Virus record (IMG/VR): IMGVR_UViG_3300029846_000275
Length of the DNA: 13,368 bases
Source: a virus
Taxonomy: Duplodnaviria; Heunggongvirae; Uroviricota; Caudoviricetes
Strand: one strand, 5' to 3'
Notes under the pieces: model-generated
The model's database searches: none
Told to the model about the DNA's origin: nothing
Seen by the model: only the letters and a program-made list of their open reading frames with translations
Made by a program: the position numbers and the translations under genes
Shown: one piece after another, positions 8,027 through 8,918 of the stretch
Numbering within the stretch: the first letter of the stretch is position 1
Layout of the letters: every line of letters starts with the position of its first letter

Positions 8027-8173
8027 GCCTGACAGCCGTGACGAGCATCTGATACAGCGCTTTACATAATGGCATAGGAATAATTCAGAAGGACATCACA
8101 GCATGCCCACACAAATTAGTGTGAGTGTCCTGTTTCTTCCTACGCACAGGACTGACGAGCATGAGGGGAAAAT

Positions 8174-8341
8174 ATGCGAACCATAAATGCCTCATCTTCA
8201 GCAATGCAGCCGGCATCCGAACAGGACGATATTGTAAATTCACCTAATTACGAGGACATTGCAGTAGTTGAATTGCAGCTCTGTATTAGCCTGACAGTGA
8301 CAGAATGCGATACTGACTCTGTCACAGGTGAAATAGTTTGA
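8174..8341 (+). CDS. Hypothetical small protein (55 aa), acidic
   Basis: ATG at 8174 with GAGGGG 6-7 nt upstream; no internal stops; convergent with the 68-aa ORF; absent from the ORF track (under the size cut-off). Confidence 0.3.
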   Translation: MRTINASSSAMQPASEQDDIVNSPNYEDIAVVELQLCISLTVTECDTDSVTGEIV

Positions 8342-8361
8342 ATGATTAGCAGTTATGGTGC

Positions 8362-8568
8362 TCAGTCAACCACCAGGGAATAATCCTTCGAATTCTTATC
8401 GTGCTTCACCAACGCTGCCTCAATTGCCCTGAATGCTTCCAGAGACACCTGATGTTCTATACATGCAATTACAACATCCGGGTAACTCATAGAAATGGTG
8501 CTATTAAGCATATTTTTTACACGAATCAGATCCAACGAGAGTTCATCAGCAGATTGTTCTTTATTCAT
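8362..8568 (-). CDS. Hypothetical protein (68 aa) in the region corresponding to the nonessential right end of lambdoid genomes
   Basis: ATG with GGAG about 8 nt upstream; same orientation as nu1; product is non-repetitive ([21 protein letters not shown]...). Confidence 0.5.
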
Positions 8569-8758
8569 TTTGTCGCTCCATGCGTTTGCTCGTCATCTAG
8601 CGGTTAAAATATTACTTCAAATCTTTCTGCATAAAAGAGGAAAAGTATGAAAGTTTGAGTACATCGACCTTACATACATCTGTCGGTTGCATATCCCTCC
8701 TGGATGCCAGCAAGGCTCAACTTTGTTACGCAATCAACACTATTCATTAAAAACAGGC

Positions 8759-8878
8759 TTAATATTTGACTGTTTTAGCTTCCAGTTGCCGTAACGTCTC
8801 ACGACCACTCTGGCGCACGAGTTCCACCACCTGCCCTTTAATTTTTTCCCGCTCTTCTTGTGTAAAAACTTTTGCCAC
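8759..8878 (-). CDS. Hypothetical small protein (39 aa), GTG start
   Basis: Strong SD (AAGGGGGA) 4-5 nt before GTG at 8878; product VAKVFTQEEREKIKGQVVELVRQSGRETLRQLEAKTVKY; lies 40 nt downstream of the rep stop. Confidence 0.3.
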   Translation of the reverse strand: MAKVFTQEEREKIKGQVVELVRQSGRETLRQLEAKTVKY

Positions 8879-8918
8879 AAGTCCCCCTTAAAATTACCTC
8901 ATGACCTGAAATCAAAAC

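What the first reader, a model, noticed from the sequence alone, without database searches (positions are those of the whole stretch)
8100..8880. Three unannotated small ORFs between the rep gene and cos
The region upstream of cos contains a 68-aa ORF with a good RBS, a convergent 55-aa acidic ORF and a 39-aa GTG-start ORF with a strong SD. Regions next to cos in lambdoid phages commonly hold accessory (moron) genes of unknown function, and these three are the least characterised coding candidates in the window. I cannot assign any of them to a family from sequence alone.
Basis: partly seen in the sequence, partly recalled or inferred. Interest (0 to 1): 0.45.

Follow-up and report, generated by a model that had tools for sequence, protein, structure and literature searches.

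The report
Cos-proximal leftovers of a decayed prophage
Of the three small reading frames next to the packaging site of this decayed E. coli prophage, one is a real but already catalogued phage gene of unknown function (lambda p79 / YbcW family), one is the cut-off start of a longer gene, and one is a chance frame in non-coding DNA, so the finding is ordinary.

Summary
The window is a deletion-riddled lambdoid prophage at the E. coli Qin locus. All three ORFs exist as described, between an O-like replication gene (8919-9938, -) and a genuine cos site (cosQ 8016-8022, cohesive end 7982-7993).

- **68-aa ORF (8362-8568, -): real gene.** It is 91% identical to lambda lambdap79 / K-12 YbcW. It is intact and indel-free in every diverged homologous region. 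It has 41-54% identical relatives under purifying selection (dN/dS 0.1-0.3). It is always the last late-strand gene before cos, including in a satellite-like island. Its function is still unknown; it is small, acidic and helical, with no fold or Pfam match.
- **55-aa acidic ORF (8174-8341, +): not a conserved gene.** Sister lineages, including lambda, have ACG for ATG, frameshifts and stops. A mosaic breakpoint lies inside it.
- **39-aa GTG ORF (8759-8878, -): a gene stub.** It is the first 36 codons of a 141-aa DUF977 gene, cut by a deletion junction at 8770. The same scar occurs in dozens of public assemblies.

ORF density here equals chance. All three sequences are already in public databases. 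Ordinary, low interest.

The parts
8362..8568 (-). 68-aa gene of the lambda lambdap79 / E. coli K-12 YbcW family (phrog_657). It is the last gene on the late-transcript strand before cos.
   Evidence: - phrog_657 match, E 5e-47, 68/68 residues.
- 91% identical to the lambda/DLP12 protein.
- Intact, 68 codons and no indel in 8 diverged lineages and in 118 of 122 full-length loci.
- pN/pS 0.39 against the HannyBb/mEp460 group.
- dN/dS 0.09-0.33 against the 41-54% identical homologs P0199 and P0304.
- Annotated as WP_001031431.1.
8576..8579 (-). Shine-Dalgarno GGAG, 7 nt upstream of the 68-aa ORF start.
   Evidence: The upstream sequence is AGCAAACGCATGGAGCGACAAA ATG. SD-like sequences also precede the divergent homologs in L050 and L052.
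8174..8341 (+). 55-aa acidic ORF confined to one close lineage. It lies in the non-coding stretch between the 3' end of the ybcW-like gene and cosQ, and is probably not a functional gene.
   Evidence: - In HannyBb, mEp460_ev081, E. ruysiae, L037 and L002 the start is ACG, and two 1-bp deletions bring in several in-frame stops.
- In lambda and DLP12 the frame is broken, and homology ends at 8216, inside the ORF.
- Only 40 near-identical protein clusters exist, with ragged ends.
- Within-lineage polymorphisms are 3 synonymous to 6 non-synonymous.
- No Pfam, NCBIfam or PADLOC hit.
- Not annotated by PGAP in L001.
8759..8878 (-). Truncated 5' stub of a DUF977 ('Ren-like', phrog_142) gene: 36 native codons, then 3 foreign codons and a stop.
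   Evidence: - Pfam DUF977 positions 1-36 of 134, 28.4 bits against a cutoff of 22.1.
- phrog_142 match, E 1e-10.
- The first 36 residues are identical to the 141-aa DUF977 protein of L002. Identity stops at window 8770.
- Public records call equivalents 'DUF977 family protein, partial'.
8769..8771 (.). Deletion (illegitimate recombination) junction. It joins the ybcW-ybcV intergenic region of the phage right end to the inside of the DUF977 gene. Q, the nin region, the lysis genes and ybcV are lost.
   Evidence: - To the left of 8770 the window matches L001 and Tritos; to the right it matches L002 and other replication modules. Only a 1-bp overlap is shared.
- No complete RefSeq E. coli genome spans the junction.
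- The exact chimeric 39-aa ORF and the same gene order occur in at least 35 blocks of public assemblies.
8569..8769 (.). Remnant of the divergent ybcW / ybcV (DUF1398) intergenic region.
   Evidence: It is homologous to lambda, DLP12 and Tritos. The PdhR box TGGTCTGACC, reported for ybcV/ybcW in PMC7660256, lies just beyond the junction in L001 and is absent here.
8016..8022 (-). cosQ heptamer GGGTCCT, read on the - strand.
   Evidence: The heptamer and its 22-23 nt spacing to the cohesive end are the same in DLP12/lambda (L017) and in the satellite locus L050. The identity of cosQ rests on established lambda knowledge.
7982..7993 (-). Predicted 12-nt cohesive end (cosN), GGGCGGGAGCGT on the - strand.
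   Evidence: The first base of the phage Tritos record aligns to window 7993 and its last base to 7994. The lambda equivalent is GGGCGGCGACCT.
8919..9938 (-). O-like replication initiator, the 'rep gene' of the finding (context). Gene callers start it at 9884, giving 321 aa.
   Evidence: phrog_391 match, E 2e-92. Annotated homologs appear.
5623..7827 (-). In-frame fusion of a small-terminase (DUF1441) N-terminus to a lambda-type tape-measure protein. It was made by a second deletion at about 7567 (context; this is not a rep gene).
   Evidence: Pfam places DUF1441 at residues 25-87, followed by TMP_2, TMP_4 and Tape_meas_lam_C. The alignment with the Tritos terS gene breaks at about window 7569.

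Best explanation
The interval is the right-end, cos-proximal segment of a defective lambdoid prophage at the E. coli Qin locus, reshaped by deletions. It holds one functional-looking gene and two non-genes.

1. **The 68-aa ORF.** It encodes a small (68 aa), acidic (pI 4.9), all-helical cytoplasmic protein of the lambda lambdap79 / YbcW family. In intact phages it is the last cistron on the late (pR'-type) transcript before that transcript crosses cos into the terminase genes. It is dispensable for plaque formation in lambda, and its biochemical role is unknown. My inference is that it acts as a protein-binding accessory factor made late in infection, not as a DNA-binding or membrane protein.
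2. **The 55-aa ORF.** It is a lineage-specific open frame in the non-coding DNA between that gene and cosQ, and it is most likely not expressed as a functional protein.
3. **The 39-aa ORF.** It is the 5' remnant of a DUF977 gene truncated by the deletion that fused the replication module to the right end, so it is a pseudogene stub.

Shown: homology, conservation patterns, junctions and cos. Inferred: late-operon expression in this lineage, and the protein-binding role.
For: **Locus identity**
- ydfJ, pinQ, tfaQ, tail genes L and M, a tape-measure fragment, DicF and dicB are all present.

**cos**
- It is confirmed against the real ends of phage Tritos.
- The cosQ / cohesive-end layout is shared with lambda and with a satellite.

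**68-aa gene**
- phrog_657 match, E 5e-47.
- It is intact without indels across lineages, while the antisense 68-aa ORF acquires a stop. It is intact in 118 of 122 full-length loci.
- The divergent homologs P0199 and P0304 share the motif YPDVV.ACI..VS.E.F.AIEA.L. Their synonymous sites are saturated and dN/dS is 0.09-0.33.
- In L050, P0304 sits 43 nt upstream of cosQ and before a Nu1-like gene, in an island that carries a DUF927 primase, PerC, and capsid-E and decoration-D homologs.
- In lambda, dCas12a CRISPRi on lambdap79 lowers EOP to about 1e-4. The opposite-strand neighbours bor and lambdap78 are unaffected, and the classical literature lists lambdap79 as non-essential. This fits transcriptional polarity on the late operon (PMC10695390).
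- The AF2 model is helical, with pLDDT 73.

**55-aa ORF**
- Lost start, frameshifts, stops and an internal mosaic breakpoint.
- A narrow, ragged protein set.

**39-aa ORF**
- DUF977 positions 1-36 of 134.
- Identity to a 141-aa protein ends at 8770.
- The scar recurs in other assemblies.
Against: - No function could be assigned to the 68-aa protein. There is no Pfam, NCBIfam or PADLOC match, no PDB sequence relative and no fold match in PDB or BFVD.
- The AF2 model rests on only five sequences.
- Against lambda alone, pN/pS is 0.6-0.9, based on very few substitutions.
- The satellite synteny rests on one island seen in two assemblies. Further relatives were not found in IMG/VR or JGI metagenomes.
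- The 55-aa ORF has a good SD, is intact in 50 of 52 close relatives, is called by gene finders and has its own PHROG (phrog_4035). A young lineage-specific gene therefore cannot be strictly excluded.
- Expression in this particular deleted prophage, which lacks Q and pR', is untested.
Confidence: 0.85

Rival explanations
1. All three ORFs are genuine small accessory (moron-like) genes of the prophage. Each would be translated and would contribute to host fitness or phage exclusion.
For: - All three have SD-like sequences.
- All three are called by automatic gene finders on independent contigs.
- Each hits a PHROG family.
- K-12 ybcW mRNA responds to Hha and PdhR (PMC2408971, PMC7660256).
Against: - The 55-aa frame is destroyed in sister lineages and in lambda.
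- The 39-aa ORF is 36 of 141 codons of DUF977 plus 3 junction codons.
- A PHROG hit is not proof of coding. A 33-aa ORF that spans the cos cut site itself also hits a PHROG, phrog_35283, at E 1.5e-15.
- ORF density equals the shuffled expectation.
- No promoter or terminator signals bracket any of the ORFs.
Confidence: 0.05
2. The 55-aa ORF is a young, lineage-specific (de novo) gene for a small acidic protein. It would occupy the position that the DUF3950 gene ylcI holds in lambda and DLP12.
For: - It has a strong SD with good spacing.
- It is intact in 50 of 52 close relatives.
- The allele is very common in E. coli: variants are seen on more than 1000 contigs.
- Its position and orientation are equivalent to ylcI, convergent with ybcW (ybcW-ylcI excludon in PMC12288877).
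Against: - It is not homologous to YlcI/DUF3950.
- Intactness among DNA that is at least 96% identical is expected without selection.
- Polymorphisms are 3 synonymous to 6 non-synonymous, close to the neutral ratio.
- The region it covers is the 3'-3' intergenic DNA in lambda.
- PGAP does not call it.
Confidence: 0.08
3. The 68-aa YbcW-family protein has a specific role tied to cos. It could be a packaging accessory, or a phage component that host immunity senses. Its conserved place next to cos would reflect that role, not mere hitch-hiking.
For: - It is the last late-strand gene before cos in lambda/DLP12, in the DUF1441-terminase lineage of this window, and in a satellite-like island with its own cos and Nu1-like gene.
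- A September 2026 preprint on DUF4062/NIR NADase defence (10.64898/2026.09.04.749371) contains 'lambdap79' six times, including 'co-expression of lambdap79 with', alongside 'escape', 'trigger' and 'activator'.
Against: - The preprint text could not be opened, so what it concludes about lambdap79 is unknown.
- The gene goes with two unrelated small-terminase types (Nu1 and DUF1441). The lambda/window mosaic breakpoint at 8216 separates it from the cos-terminase module.
- K-12 Qin has cos-proximal ynfO and ydfO but no ybcW homolog.
- Lambda literature lists the gene as non-essential (PMC10695390 Table 1).
Confidence: 0.2

Closest known systems
Lambda lambdap79 (47738-47944) and E. coli K-12 DLP12 YbcW (b0559)
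   Same: - 68 aa, 91% identical, with no indels.
- Same strand relative to cos and to the late transcript.
- Same divergent partner (ybcV/DUF1398) in the undeleted parent arrangement seen in L001 and Tritos.
   Different: - Here the adjoining cos and terminase module is of the DUF1441 type, not Nu1.
- ybcV and the PdhR box are deleted.
- The convergent DUF3950 gene ylcI is absent.
DUF977 (PF06163) / phrog_142 'Ren-like exclusion protein', for example the 141-aa WP_001151183.1 in strain QML220614
   Same: The first 36 residues are identical. The GTG start and SD are the same, and so is the position directly downstream of the O-like replication gene.
   Different: Only 36 of 141 codons remain. 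The rest was removed by the deletion at 8770, so this is a pseudogene stub and not a family member with function.
YlcI / YnfO (DUF3950) small genes between ybcW or ydfO and cos in DLP12, Qin and lambda
   Same: The 55-aa ORF occupies roughly the same slot and orientation: convergent with ybcW, on the cos side.
   Different: There is no sequence relationship (no Pfam hit). The 55-aa ORF mostly covers DNA that is intergenic in lambda, downstream of the ylcI stop.
Lambda cos (cosQ-cosN-cosB)
   Same: The GGGTCCT heptamer lies 22-23 nt before a 12-nt GGG... cohesive end that is followed by CGCG. The small-terminase gene lies about 200 nt further on.
   Different: The cohesive end is GGGCGGGAGCGT instead of GGGCGGCGACCT, and the partner is a DUF1441-type small terminase. 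In the window that terminase gene is fused to the tape-measure gene, so the site cannot serve autonomous packaging.

Membership tests
YbcW / lambdap79 family (phrog_657) | Full-length sequence match to the family profile and to the type members (lambda, DLP12) | tested here: met
   phrog_657 match at E 5e-47 over 68/68 positions. 91% identity to the lambda/DLP12 protein.
YbcW / lambdap79 family (phrog_657) | Reading frame maintained under purifying selection across homologs | tested here: met
   There are no indels or stops in 8 lineages. dN/dS is 0.09-0.33 against the 41-54% identical homologs.
YbcW / lambdap79 family (phrog_657) | Last gene on the late-transcript strand immediately upstream of cos | tested here: met
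   The gene ends at window 8362 and cosQ is at 8022, with no conserved ORF between them. The arrangement is the same in lambda/DLP12 and in L050.
YbcW / lambdap79 family (phrog_657) | A known biochemical function | not testable with these tools
   None is defined for the family. There is no Pfam, NCBIfam, PADLOC, PDB or fold match.
DUF977 (PF06163) | Match above Pfam's gathering score | tested here: met
   28.4 bits against a cutoff of 22.1, but only profile positions 1-36 of 134 are matched.
DUF977 (PF06163) | Complete domain / full-length protein of about 130-140 aa | tested here: not met
   The ORF has 39 aa. Identity to the 141-aa homolog ends at residue 36, at the 8770 junction.
Moron (autonomously expressed accessory gene of a prophage) | Own promoter and terminator flanking the ORF; transcription independent of the phage operons | tested here: inconclusive
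   - The consensus scan finds no sigma-70-like promoter upstream of any of the three ORFs, and no terminator.
- The 68-aa gene is co-oriented with the late operon.
- K-12 ybcW mRNA does respond to Hha and PdhR, but the PdhR site is deleted here.
DUF3950 (YlcI/YnfO), considered for the 55-aa ORF | Sequence match to DUF3950 / ribbon-helix-helix-like motif | tested here: not met
   The 55-aa ORF has no Pfam hit at E <= 1. The lambda/DLP12 YlcI sequence hits phrog_949, and the 55-aa ORF does not.
Conserved protein-coding gene (55-aa ORF) | Start codon and frame conserved in orthologous DNA | tested here: not met
   Six of eight diverged regions show ATG changed to ACG, 1-bp indels and multiple in-frame stops.
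Anti-phage defence or toxin-antitoxin components | Match to a defence-system protein model | tested here: not met
   PADLOC gives nothing significant for any of the three products.
Lambda-type cos site | cosQ heptamer, 12-nt GGG-initiated cohesive end, and coincidence with the ends of a packaged phage genome | tested here: met
   The ends of the Tritos record map to 7993/7994. GGGTCCT lies at 8016-8022 with lambda-like spacing. Actual cleavage was not tested.

The most novel reading that the evidence does not exclude
The YbcW/lambdap79 family is not a passive passenger. It would be a conserved late protein functionally linked to the cos end of lambdoid phages and of cos-type satellites, either assisting or regulating packaging termination, or acting as the phage factor that triggers (or counteracts) a host immune system such as DUF4062/NIR NADases. 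The intact copy in this dead prophage would then still matter to the host.
Probability: 0.15. Interest if true: 0.45.

Novelty: already known. Interest (0 to 1): 0.12.

Why it matters
It matters little in itself.
- The only real gene is a near-copy of a long-catalogued, uncharacterised lambda and K-12 ORF. The other two ORFs are a deletion scar and a chance frame.
- The useful outcome is practical. The case shows that SD motifs, gene-caller calls and even PHROG membership do not separate real small genes from conserved non-coding DNA next to cos, whereas cross-lineage frame conservation does.
- One modest lead remains. The YbcW family keeps its place as the last late-strand gene before cos in two terminase lineages and in a satellite-like island, and the lambda ortholog appears in a 2026 defence-system preprint that I could not read. 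If that link is real, this 68-aa protein would gain a function after decades as an orphan.

Tried and rejected
**Function searches for the 68-aa protein (all negative)**
- Pfam, NCBIfam and PADLOC gave nothing for the 68-aa or 55-aa products.
- A PDB profile search gave nothing.
- Foldseek of the AF2 model against PDB and BFVD gave no match with E below 1.

**Searches for distant homologs**
- An exhaustive search of 1.84 billion representatives gave 165 hits. Almost all are error-ridden copies of the lambda gene on contigs of about 3.5 kb. These look like nanopore lambda control DNA, which is my inference. Only P0199 and P0304 are true distant homologs.
- The profile search was swamped by the same near-identical set.
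- Looking for more relatives of P0199 and P0304 in IMG/VR and JGI metagenomes found none.

**RNA and signal searches in 7700-9100**
- Rfam finds nothing in the interval; its only hits are DicF and IS009 elsewhere in the window.
- There are no terminators near the ORFs and only one weak promoter-like site.
- I considered a conserved hairpin at 8290-8328 as a bidirectional terminator and rejected it. The outer stem is broken in the HannyBb group and no T-run follows (reading).
- Repeats in the interval are short two-copy matches.

**Ideas tested and dropped**
- An early guess that the window was a P4-like satellite or PICI, with the 734-aa ORF as its primase, was dropped once that ORF proved to be a terminase/tape-measure fusion.
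- The idea that K-12 YnfO is the YbcW ortholog was wrong. YnfO is a DUF3950 protein.
- Within-lineage polymorphism was too sparse to discriminate coding from non-coding.

**Literature**
- The preprint 10.64898/2026.09.04.749371 could not be opened. Only phrase counts were obtained.
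Full report
**1. What the window is**

The window is a decayed lambdoid prophage at the E. coli Qin locus.
- ydfJ lies at 1-1284 (-), followed by ynfT/ydfK, pinQ (2618-3208), tfaQ, a tail-fibre fragment, and tail genes L and M.
- A 734-aa ORF at 5623-7827 (-) follows. It is not a replication gene. Pfam shows a DUF1441 small-terminase N-terminus (residues 25-87) fused in frame to lambda-type tape-measure domains.
- Alignment with the left end of phage Tritos shows its terS gene matching the window up to about 7569 and then breaking. One deletion therefore removed everything from mid-terS to mid-tape-measure.
- To the right of the finding lie an O-like replication initiator (8919-9938, -; phrog_391, E 2e-92), a YdaT-like gene, cro- and cI-like genes, DicF RNA (12229-12280), dicB and an exonuclease.

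**2. The cos site is real**

- Window 7830-8770 is 98.5-100% identical to prophages in other E. coli and to phage Tritos. Window 8216-8770 is 87% identical to lambda 48090-47552 in reverse orientation.
- The last base of the Tritos record maps to window 7994 and its first base to 7993.
- Read on the minus strand, the window has GGGTCCT (8022-8016), 22 nt, then GGGCGGGAGCGT (7993-7982), then CGCGG.
- DLP12/lambda has GGGTCCT, 23 nt, GGGCGGCGACCT, CGCGG. A satellite-like island (L050) has the same layout.
- Naming these elements cosQ and the cohesive end rests on established lambda knowledge.

**3. The observation**

- All three ORFs exist at the stated coordinates with SD-like motifs, and the 55-aa product is acidic.
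- The number of ORFs of these lengths in 8100-8880 is not above dinucleotide-shuffle expectation, with p between 0.14 and 0.27.
- The exact products are already in public databases. The 68-aa ORF is RefSeq WP_001031431.1, sometimes named 'protein YbcW'. The 55-aa ORF appears as 'hypothetical protein'. The 39-aa type appears as 'DUF977 family protein, partial'.

**4. The 68-aa ORF (8362-8568, -) is a real gene**

Coding evidence:
- It matches phrog_657 end to end (E 5e-47).
- It is 91% identical to lambda lambdap79 and K-12 DLP12 YbcW.
- In eight diverged homologous regions it keeps 68 codons with no indel. The overlapping antisense 68-aa ORF picks up a stop in four of them. pN/pS against the HannyBb/mEp460/E. 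ruysiae group is 0.39, with most changes in the first 19 codons.
- Across all loci fetched, 118 of 122 full-length copies are intact. The four broken ones look like error-laden lambda contigs.

Distant homologs:
- The exhaustive representative search gave 165 hits, nearly all corrupted copies of the lambda gene on contigs of about 3.5 kb.
- Those contigs come from unrelated taxa. I infer contamination by nanopore lambda control DNA. The same contamination dominates the genome-contig hits from Streptomyces, Flavobacterium and others.
- Two true distant homologs emerged, P0199 (54% identity) and P0304 (41%). They share the motif YPDVV.ACI..VS.E.F.AIEA.L.
- Codon-level comparison gives saturated synonymous sites (pS 0.59-0.75), pN of 0.26-0.41 and dN/dS of 0.09-0.33. 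This is clear purifying selection.

**5. Context of the family**

- In lambda and DLP12, the gene is the last one on the late-transcript strand before cos. It is divergent from ybcV (DUF1398) and convergent with the DUF3950 gene ylcI.
- J02459 does not annotate the ylcI homolog, which lies at complement(48109..48303).
- In the window's lineage the cos and terminase module is of a different (DUF1441) type. The homology breakpoint with lambda is at 8216, so the gene travels with the right-arm end and not with the terminase.
- P0304 lies in an island with a DUF927 primase, PerC, capsid-E and decoration-D homologs. It sits 43 nt upstream of a cosQ-like GGGTCCT, a cos-like site and a 111-aa Nu1-like gene. 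I infer this is a PICI-like satellite.
- P0199 lies at the edge of an AlpA-containing island.
- K-12 Qin itself lacks a ybcW homolog. Its ynfO is a DUF3950 gene.

**6. Function of the 68-aa protein**

- Nothing is assignable from sequence or fold. There is no Pfam, NCBIfam or PADLOC hit, no PDB relative, and no Foldseek match for a helical AF2 model with pLDDT 73 and four helices.
- The protein is acidic (pI 4.9) and has no hydrophobic segment.
- Literature on the K-12 and lambda copies:
  - K-12 ybcW mRNA is induced by Hha (PMC2408971). It falls about 9-fold in a pdhR mutant, and a PdhR box lies in the ybcV-ybcW spacer (PMC7660256).
  - ybcW and ylcI form a convergent excludon (PMC12288877).
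  - dCas12a CRISPRi on lambdap79 drops EOP to about 1e-4, while bor and lambdap78 on the other strand score non-essential and classical work lists lambdap79 as non-essential (PMC10695390). I read that as roadblock polarity on the late transcript, which places the gene inside that transcript.
  - A September 2026 preprint on DUF4062/NIR NADase immunity contains 'lambdap79' six times, including 'co-expression of lambdap79 with'. I could not open it, so its conclusion is unknown.
- My committed reading is that this is a non-essential, late-expressed, protein-binding accessory factor. This is an inference.
- In the window, the PdhR box lies just beyond the 8770 junction and is lost. Q and pR' are also gone. 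Any transcription would have to come from the early pR-like operon through the DUF977 stub, which is an untested inference.

**7. The 55-aa ORF (8174-8341, +) is not a conserved gene**

- In HannyBb, mEp460_ev081, E. ruysiae, L037 and L002, the ATG is ACG and two 1-bp deletions (near 8184 and 8256) shift the frame, giving four to five in-frame stops.
- In lambda and DLP12, homology begins only at 8216, inside the ORF. The frame carries stops and two indels.
- The DNA it covers corresponds to the 3'-3' intergenic stretch between ylcI and the ybcW homolog in lambda.
- Protein searches find only 40 near-identical clusters with ragged ends.
- Within the close lineage it is intact in 50 of 52 copies, with 3 synonymous and 6 non-synonymous variants. 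That is what neutrality predicts at this divergence.
- Its PHROG hit (phrog_4035) is not evidence of coding. A 33-aa ORF that spans the cos cut also has a PHROG hit, phrog_35283 at E 1.5e-15.
- A young lineage-specific gene cannot be fully excluded. I give that about 8%.

**8. The 39-aa ORF (8759-8878, -) is a stub**

- Pfam DUF977 matches residues 1-36 to profile positions 1-36 of 134.
- Those 36 residues are identical to a 141-aa DUF977 protein that follows the same O-like gene in strain QML220614. Identity stops at window 8770, after which three foreign codons and a stop follow.
- The junction shares only 1 bp between the two parents.
- No complete RefSeq E. coli genome spans it. The identical chimeric ORF with the same neighbours occurs in at least 35 assembly blocks, including GCA_003291995.1. 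It is therefore a natural, inherited deletion scar.

**9. Verdict**

- Only one of the three ORFs is a gene, and it is already known (lambda p79 / YbcW, function unknown). The other two are a pseudogene fragment and a chance frame.
- Novelty: already known. Interest: low.
- One lead is worth a note: the family's fixed position just before cos in phages and in a satellite, together with the unread 2026 preprint.

Noticed in passing
window 5623-7827 (-), junction near 7567-7569: The 734-aa ORF is an in-frame fusion of a DUF1441 small-terminase N-terminus to a lambda-type tape-measure protein. A deletion removed all the head genes and the proximal tail genes. The same 724-aa call recurs on other contigs.
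   Followed up: partly
window 8023-8038: An 8-bp unit GACAGCCT lies directly next to cosQ. It is present twice here and three times in phage Tritos, a copy-number difference of unknown significance.
   Followed up: no
window 12229-12280 (+) and 3340-3538 (-): Rfam finds DicF sRNA upstream of dicB (72.5 bits) and the 'IS009' RNA family inside or antisense to tfaQ (226.8 bits).
   Followed up: no
L005 200-394 = lambda J02459 complement(48109..48303): Lambda carries an intact 64-aa homolog of K-12 YlcI (DUF3950, ribbon-helix-helix-like sequence) between lambdap79 and cos. It is not annotated in J02459. Two intergenic mutations 'downstream of lambdap79' were flagged as lowering infection efficiency in PMC11666707.
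   Followed up: partly
L008-L043 (genome-contig hits) and most of P0028-P0306: Contigs of about 3.5 kb carrying the lambda right end sit in assemblies of unrelated taxa (Streptomyces, Flavobacterium, Cohnella and others). Thousands of error-ridden protein variants derive from them. This looks like nanopore lambda control DNA contamination (my inference), and it inflates the apparent size and diversity of the family.
   Followed up: partly
L050 / L051 (5001-5805): A satellite-like island (DUF4222, DUF927 primase, PerC, capsid-E and decoration-D homologs) carries a 41%-identical YbcW homolog, a hairpin, a cosQ-like GGGTCCT, a cos-like site with three GTGTCGGT(A/T)C repeats, and a 111-aa Nu1-like gene. 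It is not found in complete E. coli genomes.
   Followed up: partly
window 7951-8052 (+): A 33-aa ORF that spans the cos cleavage site matches a PHROG family (phrog_35283, E 1.5e-15). This shows that PHROG membership can reflect conserved non-coding DNA that has been annotated as a gene.
   Followed up: yes
L001 about 9990-10005 (just beyond window 8770): The PdhR box TGGTCTGACC, reported for the K-12 ybcV-ybcW spacer, is present in the undeleted relative. It is removed from the window by the 8770 junction.
   Followed up: partly
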